A stretch of DNA of 11,944 nt, from the UHGV virus genome UHGV-0306691, one strand, 5' to 3'. The position numbers and the translations under genes were made by a program. Under the pieces are notes generated by a model that was not told where the DNA came from, did no database searches, and was given only the letters and a program-made list of their open reading frames with translations. Positions 1 to 11,944 of the stretch are shown piece after piece. The stretch's first letter is position 1; each line of letters begins with the position of its first letter. Origin of the DNA: a virus.

Positions 1-263
1 GGGGGATTACCAAAGGCAGCACCTTTAAGCTCCGCAAGACGTTCAGACCAGTCATGCGCCAGCGCGTTGTCTTCCGCAGTGTAATAAGCGGCACATTTGG
101 CGTTATCACCATCAGTGAACAGATCCAGAACAAACGGGCCAAACAGGGTGTTAATTCCCCAGAAAATGTTGTCCGGCGTGCGCCACTGATCGCCCACTTC
201 CTTCAGTTCATGGGCTGGTTTGTTCCGCAGCTCCACCAGCGCCTGGCAATATTTATTACTCAT
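1..263 (-). CDS. Phage Dam-type N6-adenine DNA methyltransferase, N-terminal part (gene continues beyond window start)
   Basis: Reverse-strand translation from ATG (complement of 261-263) gives MSNKYCQALVELRNKPAHELKEVGDQWRTPDNIFWGINTLFGPFVLDLFTDGDNAKCAAYYTAEDNALAHDWSERLAELKGAAFGNPPY..., with the W-x-TP motif and the (D/N)PPY catalytic motif of N6-adenine MTases. Start ATG overlaps the stop of the upstream gene (TAATG). No stop in window, so absent from the ORF track. Confidence 0.6.
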   Translation of the reverse strand, partial: MSNKYCQALVELRNKPAHELKEVGDQWRTPDNIFWGINTLFGPFVLDLFTDGDNAKCAAYYTAEDNALAHDWSERLAELKGAAFGNP

Positions 264-751
264 TAAGCCCCCACGTAATTCCCTGACAGATACCACTCTT
301 CACCCGATGCAGCGCGCTTGCTGCTTTTCCGTAAGCACCGCTCACGATGCGCCAGAAAATTGTTTCGTTCTGGCTGGGAGTGGCTTTCACGGAATGCCGC
401 CATCCACACCGTTGCAGCACGACGGTATAAGCCCCTGGACTCCAGTTCTTCCGCCTGGCGGGTCAGGCACAAAATCACCCGCGGGTCGTTAGTGCCGACA
501 TAGAAATTGCGCACAGGTCTGGTTTCACGAACTGGTTGTGGTTCCGGCTCCTGCGCTCTCTCAGTCAGGCGTGGGAAATGTCTGCGTGTATCTCCTTCAC
601 AACGGTGAGCCACACGCCCACTCTGACGTAACTTGCTTGCTGACTGCAGAACGCGCTGCCGTGAGTAACCAGCAAAAGCATCCGCAATGTCTCCGGAAGT
701 ACACCCCGGATGGGCTTCAATGAATTTCTGAACTTCATTCAAAAGACTCAT
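263..751 (-). CDS. Putative transcriptional regulator, N-terminal winged-helix-like region and C-terminal PerC-like motif (162 aa from ATG at 751; ORF track extends to 757)
   Basis: ORF 263..757; internal ATG at 751 is preceded by AGGGGG with 5-nt spacing, 2 nt after the O-like stop. C-terminal segment AEELESRGLYRRAATVWMAAF resembles the PerC/Pch family motif (E-x-[KR]-G-L-[WY]-R-R-A-A-x-x-W) as I recall it. Sits where lambda has P. Confidence 0.45.
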   Translation of the reverse strand: MSLLNEVQKFIEAHPGCTSGDIADAFAGYSRQRVLQSASKLRQSGRVAHRCEGDTRRHFPRLTERAQEPEPQPVRETRPVRNFYVGTNDPRVILCLTRQAEELESRGLYRRAATVWMAAFRESHSQPERNNFLAHRERCLRKSSKRAASGEEWYLSGNYVGA

Positions 752-753
752 GA

Positions 754-1746
754 TCACCCCCTGAATCCTGCCGGGATCTGGCTGTAGTCCACGTTGTCGT
801 AACTGGCTTTGAAGTACGGGTCTTCATGTTTTTCTGTGTGCGTGCTGACGGACGGCGATAAGCGCAGGGAAAGCTCATCCCATTTTTCCCGCAACTTCGA
901 CGGGCTGAGCACGTTACGGCACCAGAACGGATCGCGGCTGACGCGGCTGTACATCTCGCAGATTTGTTTGTGAGTACGACCATCCTGCACACACATCAGG
1001 CGAATTTCGTTTGCCCATGCTGTCCAGTTCGGTTCTTTGGGACGAACCACCTCGCCGTCACATTCGGCGGCCTGCTCGTACAGGGCGATGATTTTTTTCC
1101 AGAGCCACTGTGCGCAGGTCAAATCATCCTGCGTTCCCCACTGGCGCTTTTTAGGGCTGAATACAACCGCATCAGGATGGCGAGTTAAAAACTCCTGTTC
1201 AGCCGTTTGCGTGTCCGGTTGCGAAGCGTCCGGACGAGAAGAGGTTTTATTCTCTGTAGTAATCTCTGTTGTATTCTCTGTAAGATCATTGGGCCATTTT
1301 GACCCGATGACAGCGTGTCGTTTTGAACCAATGGATCGTGTCATTTTGCGCCCATCCATCAGGTCACTTTGACCCGATGGAGAAGTGCATTTTGACCTGA
1401 TGGATTCGTTCACTTTGACCTCTTCTAAAAGCTCACTTTCATAGTTGATCGTGTAGAAGTTGGTCATGTCACGCTTCGATTTATTGAGTTGCTCGCGACG
1501 CAAAACCCCAAGTGATTTCAGGCTTGCAAATGTGCGTTTCAGAGTGGACTCTGACCAGAACGGAAACTGCTCCAGCCACTGTTCTGTCGTGTTATAAACC
1601 CAGCGAATTCCGCCATGCTCAGTGCCTGAATTCGTTTCATTCAGCCAGTAATGAAGCTGCTGCAACACAATTGCCTCATTCAGACCAATACGGCATGCAA
1701 GATCACGATTTATCACAATGGGCTGGGATGTCATTAACAGGCTCAT
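754..1746 (-). CDS. Replication initiation protein, lambda O-like (ori iterons inside the coding sequence)
   Basis: 330-aa ORF, RBS GAGGT 5 nt upstream of ATG. Position after cro/CII-like genes and six ~17-bp direct repeats at ~23-bp spacing inside the gene (1295-1420) are the hallmark of lambdoid O genes. Low-complexity linker with codon repeats (TENTTEITTEN). Confidence 0.75.
   Translation of the reverse strand: MSLLMTSQPIVINRDLACRIGLNEAIVLQQLHYWLNETNSGTEHGGIRWVYNTTEQWLEQFPFWSESTLKRTFASLKSLGVLRREQLNKSKRDMTNFYTINYESELLEEVKVNESIRSKCTSPSGQSDLMDGRKMTRSIGSKRHAVIGSKWPNDLTENTTEITTENKTSSRPDASQPDTQTAEQEFLTRHPDAVVFSPKKRQWGTQDDLTCAQWLWKKIIALYEQAAECDGEVVRPKEPNWTAWANEIRLMCVQDGRTHKQICEMYSRVSRDPFWCRNVLSPSKLREKWDELSLRLSPSVSTHTEKHEDPYFKASYDNVDYSQIPAGFRG
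1295..1420. repeat. Origin of replication iterons: six direct repeats, consensus ~CAyTTTGACCnGATGGA, period 23-24 bp
   Basis: Copies start at 1295, 1319, 1342, 1365, 1388 and 1411 (last one partial): cattttgacccgatga / cgttttgaaccaatgga / cattttgcgcccatcca / cactttgacccgatgga / cattttgacctgatgga / cactttgacc. Followed by a moderately AT-rich stretch 1421-1500. Lies inside the O-like gene, as in lambda ori. Confidence 0.65.
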
Positions 1747-1915: not shown

Positions 1916-2094
1916 AGGACTGTCTCCTTCTGCCGGTTGAAATCACCCACAGCCCACTCTGCAAATCTGTGGGTTACAATTTCCCTGTCACCTGGTACAT
2001 TCACTGCATAGCAATACTCCACCTTCGCTTTTCCACCCGGTACAGGAAGCGCAATCAGTTGCGAGCGACGGTAGTGTGTTGTTAAACTGTTCAT
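1756..2094 (-). CDS. Hypothetical protein (112 aa), translationally coupled between the CII-like and O-like genes
   Basis: ATG overlaps the stop of the 196-aa gene (ATGA at 2091-2094) and ends 10 nt before the O-like ATG. N-terminal half looks protein-like; C-terminal third (S/N-rich) looks like out-of-frame sequence, so the true coding frame here is unresolved. Confidence 0.35.
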
Positions 2095-2681
2095 GCGTTA
2101 GTTTCTCCACAACCAGAAGCAATCGACGCCACGACGCCCGGAGCTGCACACTCGCGGGCGTCATTACTTTCTGAAATGCAAAAAATTTTGTAGACCAGTG
2201 CTGCATGCTCCTGGAGCTTCGAAATTGAGAGATACAGTTCGTCGTTAATTGCTGTCTTCTCATGCGGTTCCACTACACCGTCTTCGATTGCTGAACGAAT
2301 CTGTCTGGAATAACTGCCGATCTGTTCAATGACTTCCAGCAGACGCTGGTTAATATCGGCGTTGTCCACATCCTCGACGTCAGGAAGAGACACAAAGACG
2401 CCATTTGCAGACTGCGCCACAGCGTCAGCAATGAAGTGAGTGCCACCAGCACGTTGCAAAATCATTGCCCATCCCAGCGGGAAAATCTGATCACCATCGG
2501 CACGAAGGCGGTTAAATAATGCGTTCTCTGTTACATCCAGCCAATCAGCTGCTTCAGCGTAACCACCCGGCAACGTTGCGATAGTTTTTCTGACAGCTTT
2601 CACGTACCACTCAGGCTGTTTTTCTACTTTCCAGTGATGCTTACCCACGGCTATCTCCTTAAAACTGTGGTTACTTTCCAT
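2091..2681 (-). CDS. CII-like / YdaT-family phage regulatory protein (196 aa)
   Basis: Immediately downstream of the cro-like gene with an 11-nt overlap, the position of cII in lambdoid phages and of ydaT after ydaS in Rac-type prophages. Family assignment is by context and general resemblance only. Confidence 0.45.
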
Positions 2682-2919
2682 CTGATAAGTCTTTAATCTT
2701 TTGAAAAATATCTGGACGTAATTTTTCTTTTGATACGCCAGTGGTCATTTCAATGAATATCGAAAGCTTTGCAGGGGGACGCTTTTCTCTGTTCAACCAG
2801 TTCCATACATGTTGTTGCTTTACTAAACGACCACTGCTGGCTGTGAGCTTCCGAGCCAATTCTGATTGACCACCAGCCAGAGCGATTGCCTCTGATAAGG
2901 CTAATTGCTCAGGTGTCAT
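2671..2919 (-). CDS. cro: Cro-like HTH DNA-binding protein (YdaS/Cro family), 82 aa
   Basis: Divergent from the cI-like gene across the operator region. AGGAG SD 6 nt upstream of ATG. Product contains IALAGGQSELARKL HTH-like segment and C-terminal LRPDIF motif typical of YdaS/Cro-like proteins as I recall them. Confidence 0.65.
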   Translation of the reverse strand: MTPEQLALSEAIALAGGQSELARKLTASSGRLVKQQHVWNWLNREKRPPAKLSIFIEMTTGVSKEKLRPDIFQKIKDLSDGK

Positions 2920-3056
2920 AGCTTTCTCCTATCTGTAAGTAGTAAAGTTGTTGATAACTTCGATTATACAACTACAACAACTTTTATCACAACTTTTAGA
3001 TGTTGGAAAGCTAAAACATAAAGTTGTAACCTCAATAAAAACGAGGGGGATAGGTT
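2920..3056. promoter_or_regulatory. OR-like divergent promoter/operator region between cro-like and cI-like genes
   Basis: Leftward promoter: perfect TATAAT on minus strand (complement of 2963-2968) with TTGTGA -35 at 18-nt spacing (complement of 2987-2992), about 37 nt upstream of the cro ATG. Repeated operator-like motifs: TAAAGTTGT at 2943-2951 and 3019-3027; AAGTTGTTGATAACTT (2945-2960, palindromic ends); ACAACTTTTAGATGTTG at 2989-3005. Confidence 0.55.
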
Positions 3057-3743
3057 GTGAAAACATTGGCAGATAGACTAAAAAGCGAAAGAGAAAAAGC
3101 AGGAATGAGTCAGGCGCAACTAGCTGAAAAAATTGGACTTTCACAACAATCCGTAGCAAAAATCGAGAATGGAGAAACTCAACAGCCTCGGAAAATTAAA
3201 GAGATTGCTAAAGTGTTAGGGGTTTCTCAAAAGTGGTTGCAATTGGGCATTGAGGATAACGCGTCTTTCCCAGACCTTGTTGTAAAGGAGGCTGAAAGTA
3301 CAGCATTAGATCCTGACATTTTTGCAAACATTCCTGTCCTGGATGTCGAGTTATCAGCGGGTAATGGATGTTTGGCTGAAATAGTTGAATCAACTGTAGA
3401 CTGGTTCCCGCTAAGAAGGATTGATTTAAGAAAAGCTGGTGTATGTGTCTCCAATGCAAAGATCGTAAAAATTTGGGGTAATAGTTTACTACCTGTACTT
3501 AACAATGGAGATTTTGTTGCTGTTGATGTTTCCCAAACAGTTCCTATTCGTGATGGGGATCTTTATGCTATACGTGATGGCGTATTACTTAGAGTTAAAA
3601 TATTGATCAATTTACCTGACGGTGGTCTGATTCTAAGAAGTTTCAATAAAGATGAGTATCCAGATGAAATACTCACCTTCGAAGATAGGCGTTCCAGAAT
3701 TCACGTTATAGGTAGAGTATTCTGGTCATCGCGCACTTGGTAA
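3057..3743 (+). CDS. cI: cI-like prophage repressor (N-terminal XRE-type HTH, C-terminal LexA/S24 peptidase-like autocleavage domain)
   Basis: 228 aa, GTG start after GAGGGGG. HTH segment MSQAQLAEKIGLSQQSVAKIENGE; C-terminal domain with G-N-S (GNSLLP) and downstream Lys (LRVKIL) in the arrangement of the S24 Ser/Lys dyad. Divergent from the cro-like gene. Confidence 0.85.
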   Translation: MKTLADRLKSEREKAGMSQAQLAEKIGLSQQSVAKIENGETQQPRKIKEIAKVLGVSQKWLQLGIEDNASFPDLVVKEAESTALDPDIFANIPVLDVELSAGNGCLAEIVESTVDWFPLRRIDLRKAGVCVSNAKIVKIWGNSLLPVLNNGDFVAVDVSQTVPIRDGDLYAIRDGVLLRVKILINLPDGGLILRSFNKDEYPDEILTFEDRRSRIHVIGRVFWSSRTW

Positions 3744-3801
3744 TGCATCAAAAAGCATTCCTTCAGAAATTTAGTTTCTATTATTATCCGCCTTTTCAAT
3801 C

Positions 3802-3840
3802 TTCCTTCCGTGATTTGAGAGTTTCCAATCACGGAAGGAA
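3802..3840. repeat. Perfect 14-bp inverted repeat (TTCCTTCCGTGATT / AATCACGGAAGGAA) with 11-nt loop, downstream of cI
   Basis: Arms 3802-3815 and 3827-3840, directly visible. No flanking T-tract on either strand, so not a canonical intrinsic terminator; could be a processing site, protein-binding site or structure-dependent terminator. Confidence 0.5.
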
Positions 3841-3929
3841 AGTATCCCTTGTGTAATTAAAAGCGCATCGTCCATACAACCTCCTTTTTTGATAATCCTT
3901 GCCCTCATTTCACGTCCGTCAAAACCACA

Positions 3930-3983
3930 TAAAGTTGTTGACAACAACCAAAACAACAACTAGATTACAACTTAAAGATGTTG
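3930..3983 (+). promoter_or_regulatory. OL/pL-like rightward promoter with operator motifs shared with OR
   Basis: TTGACA at 3938-3943, 17-nt spacer, TAGATT at 3961-3966. TAAAGTTGT (3930-3938) overlaps the -35; ACAACTTAAAGATGTTG (3967-3983) matches the OR copy at 2989-3005 in 16 of 17 positions. Placement downstream of cI, pointing into the early-left operon, mirrors lambda pL. Confidence 0.5.
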
Positions 3984-4076
3984 CAGTAACGAACAGGCAG
4001 GACGCCCACGAAGTAGCCGCCGGTGGCGTATGAATGACCGGATGATTCGTTAAATACTATGTGTAAGAGAGCGCAA

Positions 4077-4280
4077 ATGAACCGTTATTTCACATGCTCG
4101 TTTTGTGGCGCAAACGAGCTGCAGGCAAAAAAAATCATCGCCAAAGGCGGAAAAGATGAAGTTGCTATCTGCTCTGAGTGCGTAGTCTTGTGTGTCGGGG
4201 CATTAATCAATATCAGCACAACTATTCAGTTCACACCAAATGAGAATGCGCCTTTAGATGCGCGGAAATCTGGAGGTTAA
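4077..4280 (+). CDS. Small protein with ClpX-type C4 zinc-finger (ClpX N-terminal zinc-binding-domain-like), 67 aa
   Basis: CSFCG-x18-CSECVVLC matches the ClpX ZBD signature (E. coli ClpX: CSFCG...KLIAG...YICDECVDLC), including the K-[LI]-I-A-[GK] segment. ATG at 4077 preceded by AAGAGAG; first gene after the pL-like promoter. Confidence 0.6.
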   Translation: MNRYFTCSFCGANELQAKKIIAKGGKDEVAICSECVVLCVGALINISTTIQFTPNENAPLDARKSGG

Positions 4281-4369
4281 AGAACAAAATGAAAGTCCAG
4301 ATTTTAAACAATAACTGTGAAGTCGTTTGGGCGTAAAACATGACCGCGCGTAGACCAAGGGAGGAAAAA

Positions 4370-4546
4370 GTGGGAATAGTTAGAAATCAAGCAGATATAT
4401 TGAAAATCAGCTCTGAATTGCTTGGAGTTTTGAAAAGTGAGCTCACCGCACATGGCATCGAGCCCACTGACGAAAATTTAAGTTGGGTTTTGTCGATTAT
4501 TCAACAATCACTCAAGCCCAGCCTCAGCAAACTTTTTATCGAGTAG
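4370..4546 (+). CDS. Hypothetical small protein (58 aa, GTG start)
   Basis: GGGAGG SD 5 nt upstream of GTG 4370; the ATG at 4340 has no SD. Helical-looking product. 3' end overlaps a convergent minus-strand ORF by 39 nt. Confidence 0.3.
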   Translation: MGIVRNQADILKISSELLGVLKSELTAHGIEPTDENLSWVLSIIQQSLKPSLSKLFIE

Positions 4547-4699
4547 TGCTTCGAACTTATCGTAAAGCTTGCTTATGTCGTCTATCGGGTTTTCTGACGT
4601 ACTGTAATTTTTATCTGATGTCATGGCAGCAGTCTGATATGCAGTGTGAGTCTTAACCGATAGTTGGAATAAATAAAGAATTTTTTCTTCTTTGGTCAT
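4508..4699 (-). CDS. Hypothetical small protein (63 aa), antisense-oriented within the early-left region
   Basis: ATG (complement of 4697-4699) preceded by AAGGAAA SD; product MTKEEKILYLFQLSVKTHTAYQ... Convergent with and overlapping 4370..4546. No family recognised. Confidence 0.3.
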   Translation of the reverse strand: MTKEEKILYLFQLSVKTHTAYQTAAMTSDKNYSTSENPIDDISKLYDKFEALLDKKFAEAGLE

Positions 4700-4939
4700 A
4701 ACTATTTCCTTCTTGGCTATATGAAAACACCAAGATACCACCGAGCCTGAAGTGGTGAAAAGACAGGCACATAACAGCTAAGTATTTTCAACCAGAGAGA
4801 ATCCTTAGCGTTGTGGTGAATGCGCAGGCTGATGCGCGAAAGACATTGCAGCTATTGCGGAAAAGAGCTGTTCGGCGGGGCAATTAAACGCCCGTGAGAG
4901 TCTGAAATAACCGCAAGCCGGAGATCAGCACCGGTCACC

Positions 4940-5003
4940 ACAACAGCCACTGCTTTGGCGGTACCAGTTTGTACACTTGCTTCCGGCTGGTACCGCTCTT
5001 TTT
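4940..5003 (+). ncRNA. Putative DicF-like prophage sRNA ending in an intrinsic terminator
   Basis: TTTGGCGGTACCAGTTT (4954-4970) matches 16 of 17 positions of the DicF core as I recall it (UUUGGCGGUAUCAGUUU). 10-bp terminator stem (4958-4967 / 4987-4996, 19-nt loop) followed by UCUUUUU (4997-5003). Lies in a ~400-nt non-coding gap (4742-5140) inside the operon. 5' end is approximate; identification is from memory, not a search. Confidence 0.4.
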
Positions 5004-6521: not shown

Positions 6522-7058
6522 ATGTCATTTATTAAAACTTTTTCCGGGAAGCATTTTTATTATGACAAGATAAATAAAGACGACATCGTGATTAACGATA
6601 TCGCAGTTTCCCTTTCAAATATCTGTCGCTTTGCAGGACATCTTTCACACTTCTACAGTGTCGCCCAGCATGCGGTGCTTTGCAGCCAGCTGGTGCCGCA
6701 GGAATTTGCTTTTGAAGCGTTAATGCATGATGCAACAGAAGCATATTGCCAGGACATCCCCGCGCCACTGAAACGCCTTCTTCCTGACTATAAACGGATG
6801 GAAGAAAAAATAGACGCCGTAATCCGTGAGAAATACGGGTTACCTCCTGTTATGAGCACGCCAGTGAAATATGCCGATCTCATTATGCTGGCAACCGAAC
6901 GCCGTGATCTCGGGCTTGATGATGGCTCTTTCTGGCCTGTTCTGGAAGGTATCCCGGCAACAGAGATGTTCAAAGTTATTCCACTGTCGCCAGGCCATGC
7001 CTATGGGATGTTTATGGAACGTTTTAACGAGTTATCGGAGTTACGCAAATGCGCATGA
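6522..7058 (+). CDS. yfdR: HD-domain phosphohydrolase, YfdR-like 5'-deoxynucleotidase family (178 aa from ATG 6522)
   Basis: HD-domain metal-binding motifs: H in SVAQHAVLC and HD in LMHDATEAY. ATG 6522 has GGAGA at 5-nt spacing (the track start at 6510 is a GTG without better context). The 178-aa length matches K-12 YfdR as I recall. Confidence 0.65.
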   Translation: MSFIKTFSGKHFYYDKINKDDIVINDIAVSLSNICRFAGHLSHFYSVAQHAVLCSQLVPQEFAFEALMHDATEAYCQDIPAPLKRLLPDYKRMEEKIDAVIREKYGLPPVMSTPVKYADLIMLATERRDLGLDDGSFWPVLEGIPATEMFKVIPLSPGHAYGMFMERFNELSELRKCA

Positions 7059-7591
7059 ATGTTTTCGAAATGGAAGGGTTTCTTCGCGGGAAATGTGTAC
7101 CGCGAGATCTGAAAGTGAATGAAACAAATGCTGAGTATCTGGTGCGTAAATTTGCTGAAGCGGAGGCTAAGATTTCGGCGTTTGCGGCGGAGAATGAACT
7201 GGCTCGTAAGGCGGTTCAGGCATTCTGCGATGTTGTTGGCGACAACACCGAGGTTATCGCTGAGGAGGTTGGGCGAGATGGCGTTCTGGTTATTTTGGAG
7301 GCCATGAAAGTAACAGGAAATATGCCAGCCACCGACGCTTTCCTGGCTGAAATACGTGCGGAGGCACGCAACGAGGGGATTAACTACACCGCAAGCCGCC
7401 TTGCTGCCGCTTTCAACCACGGATTTATCAATAAGTCTTTACGTGAAGTTTTCGACGTTACACGCATGATTCTGTCAGCGAAAGAAGAGTTGGCTAATGA
7501 ACCGCACCCAATTGATGGCCTGTCCGGTGAATATGCGGAGAAATCCCTTGAAGAATGGGCGGAACAGATTCGCAAAGGAGTTCAGTCATGA
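7049..7591 (+). CDS. Hypothetical protein, YfdS-like (180 aa); paralog of 8095..8493
   Basis: Start overlaps the upstream gene end; stop overlaps the next start (ATGA at 7588-7591). N-terminal ~45 aa nearly identical to the product of 8095..8493 ([41 protein letters not shown] vs [42 protein letters not shown]). Confidence 0.55.
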   Translation: MRMNVFEMEGFLRGKCVPRDLKVNETNAEYLVRKFAEAEAKISAFAAENELARKAVQAFCDVVGDNTEVIAEEVGRDGVLVILEAMKVTGNMPATDAFLAEIRAEARNEGINYTASRLAAAFNHGFINKSLREVFDVTRMILSAKEELANEPHPIDGLSGEYAEKSLEEWAEQIRKGVQS

Positions 7592-7821
7592 GCATCCGAA
7601 CTGAACATGGATTTGGTCCGTCAACGGTCGAAGTCGAATGGCTTGATGATTGCCCTAAGTGCCAGCACGGCAAAGCCAAGGTAACAGGATGGTCGGTAAC
7701 CAAAGATTCTTTGTGGGCGGGTGATGAGGCCGTCTGTTCCAAATGCGGTCACAAAGGCGAAATCGATGCTGATGGAGAGAATGCCTGGGTGGAATGGGAC
7801 GAAATCGAGGAGGCACAATGA
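7588..7821 (+). CDS. Small zinc-ribbon protein (CPKC ... CSKC), 77 aa, possibly YfdT-like
   Basis: ATG 7588 overlaps the upstream stop (ATGA). Two CxxC pairs (CPKCQHG ... CSKCGHKG) suggest a zinc ribbon. Acidic C-terminus. Confidence 0.5.
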   Translation: MSIRTEHGFGPSTVEVEWLDDCPKCQHGKAKVTGWSVTKDSLWAGDEAVCSKCGHKGEIDADGENAWVEWDEIEEAQ

Positions 7822-7933: not shown

Positions 7934-8098
7934 ATGAGAGGACTTGCATACAATCCCGGCATTCTTCCGGCAGAAATGATTATTCGCCAACGCGTAAAGC
8001 CAATGCCATCGAGAGAGGAATTGCTTAAGAGAAATTCTTTTCCATCAGTGAATCAAAACAAATATCTGAATGCGATGTGGCGGAGTGGTAAGAAATGA
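7934..8098 (+). CDS. Hypothetical small protein (54 aa), translationally coupled to the downstream paralog gene
   Basis: AGAGGAA SD upstream of ATG 7934; no internal stops (translated by hand: [54 protein letters not shown]); stop overlaps ATG 8095 (ATGA). Below the ORF-track size cutoff. Confidence 0.3.
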
Positions 8099-8493
8099 AA
8101 CAAATGACACTAATTGAGATGGATGGTTTTCTGAAAGGCAAATGCATCCCACGAGATTTAAAGGTTAACGAAACAAACGCTGAATATCTGGTGCGTAAAT
8201 TTGCTGAAGCGGAGGCCAAGTGCGCGGCGCTGGCTGCTGAAGTTGAGGCTGTGAAATCAGCACATCAAGATGCTGTAAACACCATCATGTATACCGCCAA
8301 TCGAACGGGTGTTTTATACACAGAGAAGGCAATTCAAATGTCCTGCAAAACCCCGGCCACCGACGCCTTCCTGGCTGAAGTGCGGGCGCAGGGGGTAGAG
8401 ATGATGCGCGAACATCCATCAATCAAACTTTGCTCTTTGACGCACATATGTGACGAGTTAGCCGCCCAGCTTCGCAAAGGAGGCAACCAGTGA
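8095..8493 (+). CDS. Hypothetical protein (132 aa), diverged paralog of 7049..7591
   Basis: Shares the N-terminal domain and an internal [10 protein letters not shown][IV]RA motif with the 180-aa protein; a 51-nt patch (8170-8220) is about 94% identical to 7121-7171. Stop overlaps the next gene start (GTGA). Confidence 0.55.
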
Positions 8494-10196: not shown

Positions 10197-10436
10197 ATGT
10201 TCAGAGTGATTTACCCTAACACCTGGTACGTCGACCACCACGGCACTCCCTGCAAAATCCTGCGTTCCACTCACAACAAAGTTCACTACATCCGAAAAGG
10301 CAGAACATGTATCGCCAGCATGTTCCGCTTTAATCATGACTTTGAACCTGTGAATAAAGCTGACGCAGATCGGATAGCTGAAGAGATCGAAACAGCAGAA
10401 CACATTAAGAAGTTACGTGCCATACGCAGGAAATAG
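10197..10436 (+). CDS. Hypothetical protein (79 aa)
   Basis: ORF in operon orientation with a weak SD (AAGG). Basic C-terminus. No family recognised. Confidence 0.4.
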   Translation: MFRVIYPNTWYVDHHGTPCKILRSTHNKVHYIRKGRTCIASMFRFNHDFEPVNKADADRIAEEIETAEHIKKLRAIRRK

Positions 10437-10575: not shown

Positions 10576-10812
10576 ATGTCTCGACTAATCACTTTACAGG
10601 ACTGGGCTAAAGAAGAATTTGGGGACTTAGCACCAAGTGAGCGAGTTCTGAAAAAATACGCGCAAGGGAAAATGATGGCCCCACCCGCTATAAAAGTTGG
10701 TCGCTACTGGATGATTGACCGAAATTCCCGTTTTGTAGGAACGCTTGCAGAACCGCAACTCCCAATAAACGCAAACCCAAAACTCCAACGGATAATCGCT
10801 GATGGCTGCTAG
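10576..10812 (+). CDS. xis: Excisionase (lambda Xis-like)
   Basis: Strong SD AAGAGGAGG. N-terminus LITLQDWAKEE...KKYAQGKMMAPPAIKVGRYW parallels lambda Xis (LTLQEWNARQ...VRRWVRECRIFPPPVKDGREY). Overlaps the integrase start by 11 nt, as in lambda xis-int. Confidence 0.6.
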   Translation: MSRLITLQDWAKEEFGDLAPSERVLKKYAQGKMMAPPAIKVGRYWMIDRNSRFVGTLAEPQLPINANPKLQRIIADGC

Positions 10813-11944
10813 ACCCCGATCTCACAAAATCTCTATACCCAATTTATATTGCAAATTAGATAAGCGAACCGGAAAGGTATATTGGCAATACAAACATCCA
10901 CTATCCGGTCGTTTTCATAGCTTAGGAACTGATGAGAATGAAGCAAAACAAGTTGCTACTGAAGCAAATACCATTATTGCTGAACAACGTACCCGACAAA
11001 TATTAAGCGTCAATGAGCGTCTAGAAAGAATGAAAGGCAGGCGCTCAGACATTACGGTGACAGAATGGCTTGATAAATATATTTCTATCCAGGAGGACAG
11101 GCTGCAACATAATGAACTAAGACCCAACTCCTATCGGCAAAAAGGCAAACCCATTCGTCTTTTCCGTGAGCATTGTGGAATGCAACACCTCAAGGATATT
11201 ACCGCACTTGATATTGCCGAAATAATTGATGCTGTAAAGGCTGAAGGTCATAACAGGATGGCGCAAGTCGTGAGAATGGTGTTGATCGACGTCTTCAAAG
11301 AAGCACAACACGCAGGACATGTTCCGCCAGGATTTAACCCAGCGCAGGCAACAAAACAACCGCGAAATCGAGTAAACCGCCAAAGATTATCACTGCCCGA
11401 ATGGCAGGCAATATTTGACAGCGTAAGCAGACGGCAGCCCTATTTAAAATGCGGGATGCTACTTGCTCTTGTCACTGGACAACGTTTAGGCGATATCTGC
11501 AATTTGAAATTCTCTGATATCTGGGACGACATGTTGCACATTACTCAGGAAAAAACCGGTTCAAAACTTGCTATTCCGCTTAACCTGAAATGCGATGCTC
11601 TGAATATTACCCTTCGTGAAGTTATATCTCAGTGCAGGGATGCTGTTGTTAGTAAATATCTGGTCCATTACCGTCACACTACCTCTCAAGCAAACAGAGG
11701 AGACCAGGTGTCTGCAAATACTCTTACAACGGCTTTTAAAAAGGCCAGGGAAAAATGTGGCATAAAATGGGAGCCAGGAACTGCGCCCACATTTCATGAG
11801 CAGCGATCTCTGTCAGAACGGTTATATCGGGAACAGGGTCTGGATACGCAAAAGTTGTTAGGTCATAAATCCAGAAAAATGACCGACCGATACAATGATG
11901 ATCGTGGTAAAGACTGGATTATCGTAGATATCAAAACAGCATAG
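10802..11944 (+). CDS. int: Tyrosine site-specific integrase, lambda Int family
   Basis: 380 aa. N-terminal arm-binding region (RSHKISIPNLYCKLDKRTGKVYWQYKHP vs lambda RRSHERRDLPPNLYIRNNGYYCYRDP) and catalytic-domain motifs in lambda order: TGQRLGDICNLKFSDI (Arg), FHEQRSLSERLY (His-x-x-Arg), LLGHKS, DRY (Tyr nucleophile). Stop codon is the last triplet of the window. Confidence 0.9.
   Translation: MAARPRSHKISIPNLYCKLDKRTGKVYWQYKHPLSGRFHSLGTDENEAKQVATEANTIIAEQRTRQILSVNERLERMKGRRSDITVTEWLDKYISIQEDRLQHNELRPNSYRQKGKPIRLFREHCGMQHLKDITALDIAEIIDAVKAEGHNRMAQVVRMVLIDVFKEAQHAGHVPPGFNPAQATKQPRNRVNRQRLSLPEWQAIFDSVSRRQPYLKCGMLLALVTGQRLGDICNLKFSDIWDDMLHITQEKTGSKLAIPLNLKCDALNITLREVISQCRDAVVSKYLVHYRHTTSQANRGDQVSANTLTTAFKKAREKCGIKWEPGTAPTFHEQRSLSERLYREQGLDTQKLLGHKSRKMTDRYNDDRGKDWIIVDIKTA

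What the first reader, a model, noticed from the sequence alone, without database searches (positions are those of the whole stretch)
4077..4280. Stand-alone ClpX zinc-binding-domain mimic as the first gene of the pL-like operon
A 67-aa protein carrying the ClpX N-terminal C4 zinc-finger signature (CSFCG...KIIAKG...CSECVVLC) but no AAA+ module sits where lambdoid phages usually encode the N antiterminator. The ClpX ZBD dimerises and binds adaptors and substrates (lambda O and MuA are classic ClpXP substrates). A free ZBD could titrate adaptors or substrates or form heterodimers with host ClpX, for example protecting this phage's O-like initiator from ClpXP or re-targeting host proteolysis.
Basis: partly seen in the sequence, partly recalled or inferred. 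Interest (0 to 1): 0.6.

Follow-up and report, generated by a model that had tools for sequence, protein, structure and literature searches.

The report
Phage-encoded free ClpX zinc-finger domain
A lambdoid E. coli prophage carries, as the first early gene after its repressor-controlled left promoter, a 67-residue copy of the substrate- and adaptor-docking zinc finger of the host unfoldase ClpX with no motor attached. It most likely interferes with host ClpXP proteolysis, but it is optional cargo in a variable gene slot and not a replacement for the N antiterminator.

Summary
ORF 4077-4280 (+) encodes a 67-aa protein that matches Pfam zf-C4_ClpX (41 bits, cut-off 27). Its predicted fold superposes on the E. 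coli ClpX zinc-binding domain (ZBD) at 1.5-1.7 A, and there is no AAA+ module. It is under strong purifying selection. It is the first gene after an operator-flanked pL-like promoter.

RefSeq already names it 'ClpX C4-type zinc finger protein'. I found no paper that characterises it.

The gene is optional cargo. SfV has the same conserved leader and the same downstream sequence but lacks the gene. In about 115 related loci, the slot after the leader holds many unrelated small genes, and 13 of them are ZBDs. The gene travels with unrelated repressors and different replication genes. Its position therefore does not make it an N analogue or a guardian of one initiator.

The likeliest mechanism, inferred only, is a decoy for clients that dock on the ClpX N-domain. 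Free E. coli ZBD does this in vitro.

A side finding may be more novel. A roughly 66-nt leader RNA (about 3987-4052) shows strong covariation and has no Rfam match. It sits in early regions of diverse phages and in 34% of complete E. coli genomes, including K-12 e14.

The parts
3057..3743 (+). cI-like, SOS-cleavable repressor upstream of the operon
   Evidence: Pfam HTH_3 (1.2e-15) plus Peptidase_S24 (9.5e-14). RefSeq names it 'XRE family transcriptional regulator'.
3927..3984 (.). Operator-like repeats overlapping the promoter, shared with the cI-cro intergenic region (2943-3030)
   Evidence: Repeat families D1, D3 and D8 and inverted pairs I12-I14, for example TAAAGTTGTTGACAAC at 3930 against TAAAGTTGTTGATAAC at 2943. 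The palindrome GTTGTTGACAACAAC is read directly.
3938..3966 (+). pL-like sigma-70 promoter, TTGACA-17 nt-TAGATT
   Evidence: Promoter scan, 10 of 12 matches. It is the only + strand promoter-like site in 2600-5000.
3987..4052 (+). Conserved structured leader RNA. P1 pairs 3987-3993 with 4046-4052. A small hairpin pairs 3996-3998 with 4004-4006. P2 pairs 4020-4024 with 4037-4041 and has a conserved 12-nt loop. It is not part of the protein but defines the slot the gene sits in.
   Evidence: Nearly invariant across phages whose flanks differ. 11 of 15 pairs show compensatory changes, 90.5% of cells are paired, 0 of 500 shuffles reach the observed values, and slid controls give only 23-43% paired. 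The covariance model scores 94 bits at 3984-4059, with one copy per phage. No Rfam match.
4065..4071 (+). Shine-Dalgarno-like AAGAGAG, 5 nt before ATG 4077
   Evidence: Read directly. Homologues have AGGAG at the same place.
4077..4280 (+). Gene for the stand-alone ClpX-type ZBD protein (67 aa). Conserved core is residues 1-45 (4077-4211). Zinc-ligand codons are C7 4095-4097, C10 4104-4106, C32 4170-4172 and C35 4179-4181. The variable, low-confidence tail is residues 46-67 (4212-4277).
   Evidence: RefSeq WP_033545897.1 has the same start. PHROG 5259, unknown function.
4289..4336 (+). 15-codon stub (MKVQILNNNCEVVWA*) that matches the start of the SfV orf33-type gene (PHROG 3195). It marks the downstream edge of the ZBD cassette.
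   Evidence: DNA alignment with SfV, protein alignment, PHROG hit for SfV orf33.
4370..4546 (+). Next small ORF of the operon (58 aa from GTG 4370 after GGGAGG, or 68 aa from ATG 4340). PHROG 15476, unknown function.
   Evidence: The same ORF is the first gene after the leader in other loci (L009).
4508..4699 (-). Convergent small ORF (63 aa). PHROG 2605, unknown function.
   Evidence: RefSeq CDS WP_000159356.1. PHROG hit at 1.4e-33.

Best explanation
Shown: 4077-4280 encodes a free copy of the ClpX N-terminal zinc-binding domain, with a conserved 45-residue core and a variable, probably disordered tail. It is the first gene transcribed from the repressor-controlled early-left promoter, so it is made immediately after induction or infection and not in the lysogen. 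It is an exchangeable accessory gene in a hypervariable slot behind a conserved leader RNA.

Inferred: the protein folds and dimerises like the ClpX ZBD. It then competes with the three ZBD dimers of host ClpX for ligands that must dock there. These are adaptor tails (SspB XB-type LKxh motifs, RssB) and N-domain-dependent substrates (lambda O-type or MuA-type phage proteins, UmuD/D'). The result would be selective damping of N-domain-dependent ClpXP proteolysis or remodelling, while degrons recognised directly by the pore (ssrA-type) stay degradable. The benefit to the phage would be stabilising short-lived early phage proteins or blunting ClpXP-dependent host responses.

Identity and placement are about 0.95 certain. 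The decoy mechanism is about 0.4, and that is the confidence given for this explanation.
For: - Domain identity comes from sequence and fold. Similarity extends beyond the cysteines: CSFCG, the KK[IL]IA strand and ICxECVxLC are kept. F16 of the lambda O/SspB/RssB/TF-binding pocket is kept as the F in CSFCG. The pocket definition is from PMC7804408.
- Purifying selection acts on the core only. The tails are unrelated between homologues.
- Free E. coli ZBD in trans inhibits RssB-mediated sigma-S degradation (PMC7226468). Isolated ZBD binds XB peptides at 35-82 nM (PMC12373786). The ZBD is required for lambda O degradation (PMC7804408).
- Early-lytic expression follows from the promoter and operator layout.
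- The position is conserved in four different immunity regions: this window, Salmonella phages 118970_sal3 and F1055, and an E. coli Nissle prophage.
- Several other phage families hit the same query through the same ZBD stretch (PHROGs 20296, 12435 'protease', 6797). The representative search found hundreds of short stand-alone or tandem ZBD proteins. Free ZBDs are therefore a recurrent solution.
Against: - No binding or proteolysis data exist for this family, and I found no paper on it.
- The position equivalent to pocket residue I46 is variable in the family (A/T/V/I/K).
- The helix has lost the acidic residues of ClpX (D41, N44, D45 become V, V, G), and the loop between the zinc knuckles is 3 residues longer. 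Ligand specificity may therefore differ from that of ClpX.
- In vitro inhibition by free ZBD needed a 10- to 30-fold excess over ClpX6 (PMC7226468).
- The AlphaFold model has only moderate confidence (mean pLDDT 64), and no complex could be modelled.
- The gene is dispensable for this phage type: only 131 of 5426 E. coli genomes carry it, whereas 1844 carry the leader.
Confidence: 0.4

Rival explanations
1. The protein acts on ClpX itself rather than on ClpX's clients. It could form heterodimers with a ClpX N-domain or dock on the AAA+ ring, poisoning the trimer-of-dimers arrangement. Alternatively the variable tail could act as a handle that re-targets ClpXP to new substrates, making it an adaptor or anti-adaptor.
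For: The ZBD is a constitutive dimerisation module (PMC7226468 cross-linking; PMC7804408). The phage helix after C35 is more hydrophobic than in ClpX. The Nissle homologue (121 aa) fuses the ZBD to a C-terminal module that exists as a separate first-slot ORF in another phage (L048), which looks like a ZBD plus a cargo domain.
Against: Identity to E. coli ClpX ZBD is only 36-39%. ClpX N-domains are tethered at high local concentration, so exchange with a free monomer is unfavourable (inference). The tails are not conserved, and in this window the tail is short and of low confidence. Nothing was tested.
Confidence: 0.2
2. Counter-defence factor. The protein would block ClpXP-dependent activation of abortive-infection or toxin-antitoxin systems, much as T7 Gp4.5 does for Lon (own knowledge). 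It would be carried in a slot reserved for host-takeover or anti-defence cargo.
For: The slot after the leader is hypervariable and filled with small proteins of unknown function, and it is the very first early gene. The same leader heads the early regions of T5-like and T7-like phages. At least one E. coli defence system, CmdTAC, loses activity in a clpX deletion strain (bioRxiv 10.1101/2024.02.24.581848).
Against: The CmdA degron is a C-terminal Ala-Ala recognised by the pore, and such degrons do not need the ZBD (same preprint; PMC7226468 for ssrA). A pure ZBD decoy would therefore not block it. There is no PADLOC hit and no known anti-defence homology. This rival overlaps with the best explanation and differs only in which client matters.
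Confidence: 0.15
3. The ZBD fold is re-used for a job unrelated to ClpXP, for example a small zinc-finger regulator of phage development that binds nucleic acid, RNA polymerase or another phage protein.
For: Treble-clef and zinc-ribbon fingers are versatile, and JGI auto-annotation even calls one member 'Elf1'. zf-C4_ClpX domains occur in other architectures such as sigma factors (PMC11119718). The surface helix differs from ClpX.
Against: The only significant family match is ClpX ZBD, and it runs along the whole domain including non-ligand positions. The Elf1 model scores 12-14 bits against a cut-off of 29.8. Because the gene is optional, it cannot be a core regulator of this phage type.
Confidence: 0.2
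4. It is the functional replacement of the N antiterminator in this phage.
For: It occupies the first position after pL, and no N-like protein is found in the window.
Against: SfV, SfII and about 100 other loci share the same leader and early-left operon without this gene. The protein has no arginine-rich motif. The invariant element at that position is an RNA, not this protein.
Confidence: 0.03

Closest known systems
N-terminal zinc-binding domain of E. coli ClpX (PDB 1OVX, 2DS5-2DS8; Pfam PF06689)
   Same: Same fold (rmsd 1.5-1.7 A). Same C4 zinc site. Shared CSFCG, KK[IL]IA and ICxECVxLC motifs, with 36-39% identity over about 43 residues.
   Different: No linker and no AAA+ ATPase. The loop between the knuckles is 3 residues longer (KGGKDE against GPS). 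The helix is hydrophobic where ClpX is acidic. A variable tail follows. It is phage-encoded and transcribed from pL.
Isolated recombinant ClpX ZBD used as a competitor in vitro (PMC7226468; PMC12373786)
   Same: A free ZBD without the motor. It binds adaptor tails and inhibits adaptor-dependent ClpXP degradation in trans, which is exactly the activity proposed here.
   Different: That is a laboratory construct with the host sequence. Here the free domain is a naturally evolved, diverged, phage-borne gene whose ligands are unknown.
Phage-encoded modulators of host AAA+ proteases: T4 PinA and T7 Gp4.5 (Lon), lambda cIII (FtsH), lambda RexB (stabilises lambda O against ClpXP), SPO1 Gp53 (ClpCP). 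Listed from my own knowledge and not checked here.
   Same: Small early phage proteins that tune host ATP-dependent proteolysis.
   Different: None of them is a copy of the protease's own substrate-docking domain. Mimicry of the ClpX N-domain would be a different strategy.
Other stand-alone or tandem zf-C4_ClpX proteins in bacteria and phages (PHROGs 20296, 12435, 6797; 632 representative hits)
   Same: Same domain without an ATPase.
   Different: The enterobacterial prophage family is a tight clade of about 12 clusters at 50% identity, with its own signature MxxY[YF]TCSFCG...AKGGKDE.AICSECV and a fixed genomic position. As far as I found, none of these proteins has a demonstrated function.
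HK022 put RNAs (for the leader RNA next to the gene)
   Same: A structured RNA of about 70 nt immediately downstream of pL in an N-less lambdoid phage (PMC9378689).
   Different: No sequence or structure match: the covariance model finds nothing in HK022. There is a single copy per genome instead of putL plus putR. The architecture is an outer stem enclosing two hairpins rather than two side-by-side stem-loops. The function is untested.

Membership tests
Pfam PF06689 zf-C4_ClpX (ClpX-type zinc-binding domain) | Profile score above the curated gathering threshold | tested here: met
   41.4 bits against 27, E 1.3e-10, profile positions 2-34 of 39.
Pfam PF06689 zf-C4_ClpX (ClpX-type zinc-binding domain) | Four cysteine zinc ligands in CxxC...CxxC arrangement | tested here: met
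   C7, C10, C32 and C35 are invariant in seven family members. They align to the ClpX ligands called C14/C17/C36/C39 in the literature. The spacer is 3 residues longer.
Pfam PF06689 zf-C4_ClpX (ClpX-type zinc-binding domain) | ZBD fold (beta-hairpins plus a C-terminal helix) | tested here: met
   The AlphaFold model's top hits are 2DS5, 2DS6 and 2DS8, probability 1.00, rmsd 1.5-1.7 A, target TM 0.78-0.81. The next unrelated hit has E of about 2. Model confidence is moderate.
Pfam PF06689 zf-C4_ClpX (ClpX-type zinc-binding domain) | Zinc binding and constitutive dimerisation | not testable with these tools
   Needs metal analysis and SEC, cross-linking or AF-multimer. Only single chains from the window could be modelled.
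ClpX unfoldase (NCBIfam TIGR00382 / NF003745) | AAA+ ATPase module with pore loops and the IGF loop for ClpP | tested here: not met
   The protein is 67 aa. The equivalog models score 23-26 bits against cut-offs of 359-371 and match only residues 8-53.
Functional ClpX N-domain mimic or decoy | Binds ZBD ligands (SspB XB tail, RssB, lambda O or MuA type substrates) and inhibits their ClpXP-dependent turnover | not testable with these tools
   Only indirect evidence is available. F16 of the ligand pocket is kept, and the I46 position is variable (pocket from PMC7804408). The precedent is with the host ZBD (PMC7226468).
Lambda N-type antiterminator | Arg-rich RNA-binding protein that is an essential, conserved first gene of pL and acts at nut sites | tested here: not met
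   No N-family match for the finding's protein, the next two small ORFs (4370-4546 and 4508-4699) or the larger early-left ORFs up to 10171; ORF 10197-10436, xis and int were not scanned. The gene is absent from SfV and most relatives that have the same operon.
HK022 put antiterminator RNA (considered for the leader element) | Homology to putL or putR, and two copies (one after pL, one after pR) | tested here: not met
   Model R1 finds no match in HK022 20000-32000 and only one copy in each phage. No Rfam hit. Antitermination activity itself was not tested.

The most novel reading that the evidence does not exclude
A temperate phage has domesticated the substrate- and adaptor-docking domain of the host ClpX as a free early protein. 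It selectively switches off N-domain-dependent ClpXP proteolysis by molecular mimicry, which would be the first natural 'docking-domain decoy' against a bacterial AAA+ protease. It is one of many interchangeable host-takeover or counter-defence cargos loaded behind a previously undescribed, widely conserved early-leader RNA. That RNA may itself act on host RNA polymerase or on Rho, in place of N.
Probability: 0.3. Interest if true: 0.7.

Novelty: new member of a known kind. Interest (0 to 1): 0.48.

Why it matters
If the decoy mechanism holds, it would show a simple way for a virus to reprogramme a host protease: express only the protease's docking domain. It would also provide a natural, selective inhibitor of adaptor-dependent ClpXP activity that leaves pore-recognised degrons alone. 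That is useful for dissecting ClpXP client classes and for degradation-tag engineering. The gene is in about 2.4% of complete E. coli genomes, including the probiotic strain Nissle 1917, so experiments are easy to set up.

The comparative result also matters for annotation. Position after pL does not imply an N-like role in this phage group, because that slot is a cargo site.

The conserved leader RNA beside the gene is unannotated. It is present in a third of complete E. coli genomes (K-12 e14 included) and in unrelated phage families, and it is a good candidate for a new cis-acting early-transcription element.

Tried and rejected
- **SfV orf33 as a ZBD homologue.** It is not one. It only shares its first 14 residues with a stub downstream of the ZBD gene.
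- **Upstream ATG 4059 as the start.** Rejected because it has no Shine-Dalgarno sequence, and RefSeq and the homologues use 4077.
- **Rfam scan of the whole window at E <= 1.** Only chance miRNA hits on a palindrome at 3799-3843.
- **Single-sequence folding of the leader.** The z-score was +0.8 and the MFE structure was wrong. Only comparative analysis revealed the structure.
- **First hand-written dot-bracket.** It was off by one column and gave a null result. Corrected.
- **HK022 put homology.** No match.
- **Second (pR-side) copy of the leader.** None found.
- **K-12 Qin dicA-ydfA leader.** No element. K-12 e14 does have it.
- **PADLOC defence models.** No hits for the ZBD or its neighbours.
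- **Literature.** Searches for 'ClpX C4-type zinc finger', zf-C4_ClpX/PF06689, phage ClpX inhibitors, and the leader sequence itself found nothing relevant.
- **Primary structural papers.** Thibault 2006 PNAS and Park 2007 JMB are not held. Residue-level interface claims therefore rest on PMC7804408 only.
- **Co-inheritance with a particular replication initiator.** Rejected.

Full report
**1. What is in the sequence**

The window is the immunity and early-left region of a lambdoid (SfV / e14 / CPS-53-like) E. coli prophage. The layout is as follows.
- An O-position gene at 754-1746 (-).
- A CII/YmfL-like gene at 2091-2681 (-).
- A Cro/YdaS-like gene at 2671-2919 (-).
- An HTH_3 + Peptidase_S24 repressor at 3057-3743 (+).
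- yfdP/Q/R-type early-left genes, then xis at 10576-10812 and int at 10802-11944.

The region matches 16 complete E. coli genomes at about 99% over window 3000-5000.

ORF 4077-4280 (+) encodes MNRYFTCSFCGANELQAKKIIAKGGKDEVAICSECVVLCVGALINISTTIQFTPNENAPLDARKSGG. An in-frame ATG at 4059 has no ribosome-binding site. ATG 4077 has AAGAGAG 5 nt upstream. RefSeq (WP_033545897.1) and all homologues use this start.

**2. Is it a ClpX zinc-binding domain?**

Yes.
- Pfam zf-C4_ClpX scores 41.4 bits (cut-off 27, E 1.3e-10) over residues 6-40.
- NCBIfam ClpX equivalogs match only the same N-terminal stretch, at 23-26 bits against cut-offs above 350. There is no AAA+ module.
- The only PDB sequence matches are ClpX ZBD fragments and full-length ClpX.
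- An AlphaFold model (mean pLDDT 64, core blocks 70-81, residues 51-67 below 50) superposes on E. coli ZBD crystal structures 2DS5, 2DS6 and 2DS8 at 1.5-1.7 A. Target TM is 0.78-0.81 and identity is 36-39%. Nothing else comes close.
- C7, C10, C32 and C35 are invariant. The conserved core ends at residue 45, and the tails of homologues are unrelated in sequence and length.
- Between homologues from four phages, the core has nonsynonymous differences of 0.15-0.23 while synonymous sites are near saturation. This gives dN/dS of about 0.1-0.25, so the gene is real and under selection.

**3. Is it the first gene of a pL-like operon?**

Yes. TTGACA-17-TAGATT at 3938-3966 is the only + strand promoter-like site in 2600-5000. 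It is embedded in repeats, including the palindrome GTTGTTGACAACAAC, that recur in the cI-cro intergenic region. That is what one expects for oL and oR. The gene should therefore be silent in the lysogen and among the very first products after induction or infection. This last step is inferred.

**4. What comparative genomics adds**

*(a) The gene is already named.* RefSeq calls it 'ClpX C4-type zinc finger protein'. PHROG 5259 lists it as unknown function. It occurs in 131 of 5426 complete E. coli genomes and in four phage records. I found no paper that characterises it.

*(b) Its position is conserved but the gene is optional.* In Salmonella phages 118970_sal3 and F1055 and in an E. coli Nissle 1917 prophage, a homologue (about 55-65% identical in the core) is again the first gene after the repressor. 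SfV, however, has the same leader (window about 3990-4052) and the same downstream sequence, which is the start of orf33 and survives here as a 15-codon stub at 4289-4336. It has no ZBD gene between them. The ZBD gene with its own RBS is therefore a clean one-gene cassette.

*(c) The slot is hypervariable.* Among 126 occurrences of the leader core (IMG/VR contigs plus the reference loci already loaded and the window), 115 gave a callable first ORF. That ORF is a ZBD in 13 cases. In the other 102 it is something else, with many unrelated small proteins. The seven alternative first-slot proteins that were scanned have no known function: six fall in PHROGs of unknown function, one of which also matches DUF1391, and one has no match at all.

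*(d) The gene does not track one replication module.* It travels with repressors that are only 25-34% identical and with different O-position proteins. The 330-aa 'O-like' protein of this window has no Pfam match.

These data argue against the ZBD being an N substitute. They also argue against it being dedicated to one replication initiator. They place it among accessory early genes.

**5. Mechanism**

What is shown is the domain identity and the expression context. The rest is inference from ClpX biochemistry.
- The ClpX ZBD is the docking platform for SspB, RssB, trigger factor and substrates such as lambda O. A hydrophobic pocket around F16 and I46 is involved (PMC7804408).
- Lambda O is not degraded without the ZBD (PMC7804408).
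- ssrA-type degrons do not need the ZBD (PMC7226468).
- Isolated ZBD dimerises. When added in trans at 5-20 uM, it inhibits RssB-mediated sigma-S degradation by 0.6 uM ClpXP (PMC7226468, Fig. 1d).
- Immobilised isolated ZBD binds XB-containing peptides at 35-82 nM (PMC12373786).

The phage protein keeps CSFCG (including F16), the KK[IL]IA strand and ICxECVxLC. The I46-equivalent position is variable. The helix has lost the acidic residues of ClpX. The inter-knuckle loop is 3 residues longer.

I therefore rank the explanations as follows.
- A competitive decoy for N-domain-dependent clients is most likely, at about 0.4.
- Direct action on ClpX, as a heterodimer or adaptor, is at about 0.2. It is supported weakly by the Nissle homologue, which fuses the ZBD to a module that exists as a separate first-slot ORF in locus L048.
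- A counter-defence role is at about 0.15 and overlaps with the first. ClpX-dependent defence exists (CmdTAC, bioRxiv 10.1101/2024.02.24.581848), but it uses a pore-recognised degron.
- A function unrelated to ClpXP is at about 0.2.
- N replacement is effectively excluded.

**6. Comparison with known systems**

By sequence, ligand pattern and fold, the protein is a member of the zf-C4_ClpX domain family. It is not a ClpX. It would work like the recombinant free ZBD used as a competitor in vitro. In a broader sense it resembles phage-encoded protease modulators such as PinA, Gp4.5, cIII, RexB and Gp53 (from my own knowledge), but none of those mimics the protease's own docking domain.

Stand-alone and tandem ZBD proteins are common. 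The representative search gave 632 hits at E <= 1e-3, most of them short proteins with one to four repeats, and several phage PHROGs match. The architecture itself is therefore not new.

**7. Side finding: a conserved leader RNA (about 3987-4052)**

- *Conservation.* The approximately 66 nt between pL and the ZBD gene are about 95% identical in phages whose promoters, operators and downstream genes differ, and where synonymous sites of the adjacent gene are saturated.
- *Structure.* Ninety distinct variants, 45 of which were aligned, reveal an outer stem P1 (3987-3993 with 4046-4052), a small GGC/GCC hairpin, and a hairpin P2 (4020-4024 with 4037-4041). P2 has a conserved 12-nt loop, GGCRUAYGAAKR. 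The joining strand CCCACGAAGUAGCC is invariant.
- *Covariation.* 11 of 15 pairs carry compensatory changes. 90.5% of cells are paired against 72% in shuffles (0 of 500 reach the observed value) and 23-43% when the partner is slid. G-U pairs fit the + strand.
- *Distribution.* A covariance model finds exactly one copy per phage. It finds none in HK022 and none after pR. There is no Rfam match, and no paper holds the sequence. The element occurs in 53 phage records and in 1844 of 5426 complete E. coli genomes, and it is almost never annotated: a few phage records place a hypothetical protein or a repeat region over it. It is in K-12 e14 between ymfK and ymfJ.
- *Other phage types.* It also heads early regions of Gifsy-like phages, an Aeromonas phage, Pectobacterium ZF40, T5-like Providencia phages and the Autographiviridae phage Minorna, with P1 covarying. 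In the temperate phages it follows the repressor gene. I assume these early regions are transcribed by host RNA polymerase, which was not tested.
- *Interpretation.* Its place immediately after early promoters in N-less phages makes a cis-acting effect on elongation or termination (put-like in function, not in sequence) the leading idea. mRNA stabilisation or a processed small RNA are alternatives. None of these was tested.

**8. Verdict**

The mimic or decoy interpretation is plausible and has good biochemical precedent, but it is untested. The link to N and to the O-like initiator is not supported.

Interest in the protein is moderate. The neighbouring leader RNA is the less expected feature and deserves its own follow-up.

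Noticed in passing
window 3984-4059 (+); stems 3987-3993/4046-4052, 3996-3998/4004-4006, 4020-4024/4037-4041: A conserved, structured leader RNA of about 66 nt sits directly after pL and has strong covariation (11 of 15 pairs compensatory; 0 of 500 shuffles reach the observed values). There is no Rfam match and no paper holds the sequence. There is one copy per phage. It is present in 53 phage records, including lambdoid, Gifsy-like, T5-like and T7-like phages, and in 1844 of 5426 E. coli genomes including K-12 e14 (the ymfK-ymfJ leader). It is a candidate new cis-acting early-transcription element.
   Followed up: partly
window 4053-4340 and loci L006-L125 downstream of the leader core: The first gene after the leader RNA is a hypervariable cargo slot. 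It holds many unrelated small proteins, and the seven alternatives that were scanned have no known function (six PHROGs of unknown function, including the DUF1391/YdfA type, and one with no match). The ZBD is only one option (13 of 115). The window keeps a 15-codon stub (4289-4336) of the SfV orf33-type occupant.
   Followed up: partly
L005 6001-6366 (E. coli Nissle 1917 prophage) and L048: The Nissle homologue is 121 aa. Its ZBD is fused to a C-terminal module (…KLFKELLQLV.NLPDFGS.LAA…LLRLSAAL) that occurs as a separate first-slot ORF in another phage. This hints at a functional link between the ZBD and that module.
   Followed up: no
window 4775-4870: A non-coding block of about 95 nt, containing a CACCAC…GTGGTG hairpin, is nearly identical in SfV although the flanking sequence differs. 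It lies upstream (on the - strand) of the convergent small ORF 4508-4699 (PHROG 2605) and may be that ORF's promoter or leader.
   Followed up: no
window 3802-3840: A near-perfect 17-nt inverted repeat (TTCCTTCCGTGATTTGA / TCCAATCACGGAAGGAA) lies between the repressor gene and pL. It has no T-run on either strand. It may be a terminator or insulator for cI transcription. It produced the only (chance-level) Rfam hits.
   Followed up: no
window 7555-7821 (+): A second small cysteine-pair protein (88 aa, CPKC…CSKC) lies in the early-left operon, overlapping the end of ORF 7049-7591. It has no Pfam match.
   Followed up: no
window 7049-7300 and 8095-8340 (+): Two early-left ORFs begin with near-identical N-terminal segments of about 45 residues: (M)[36 protein letters not shown] and [39 protein letters not shown]. 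This is an internal duplication or a recombination module.
   Followed up: no
window 263-757 (-): The 164-aa ORF downstream of the O-position gene carries a PerC-type transcriptional activator domain (E 2.2e-8). This is of possible interest in pathogenic E. coli backgrounds.
   Followed up: no
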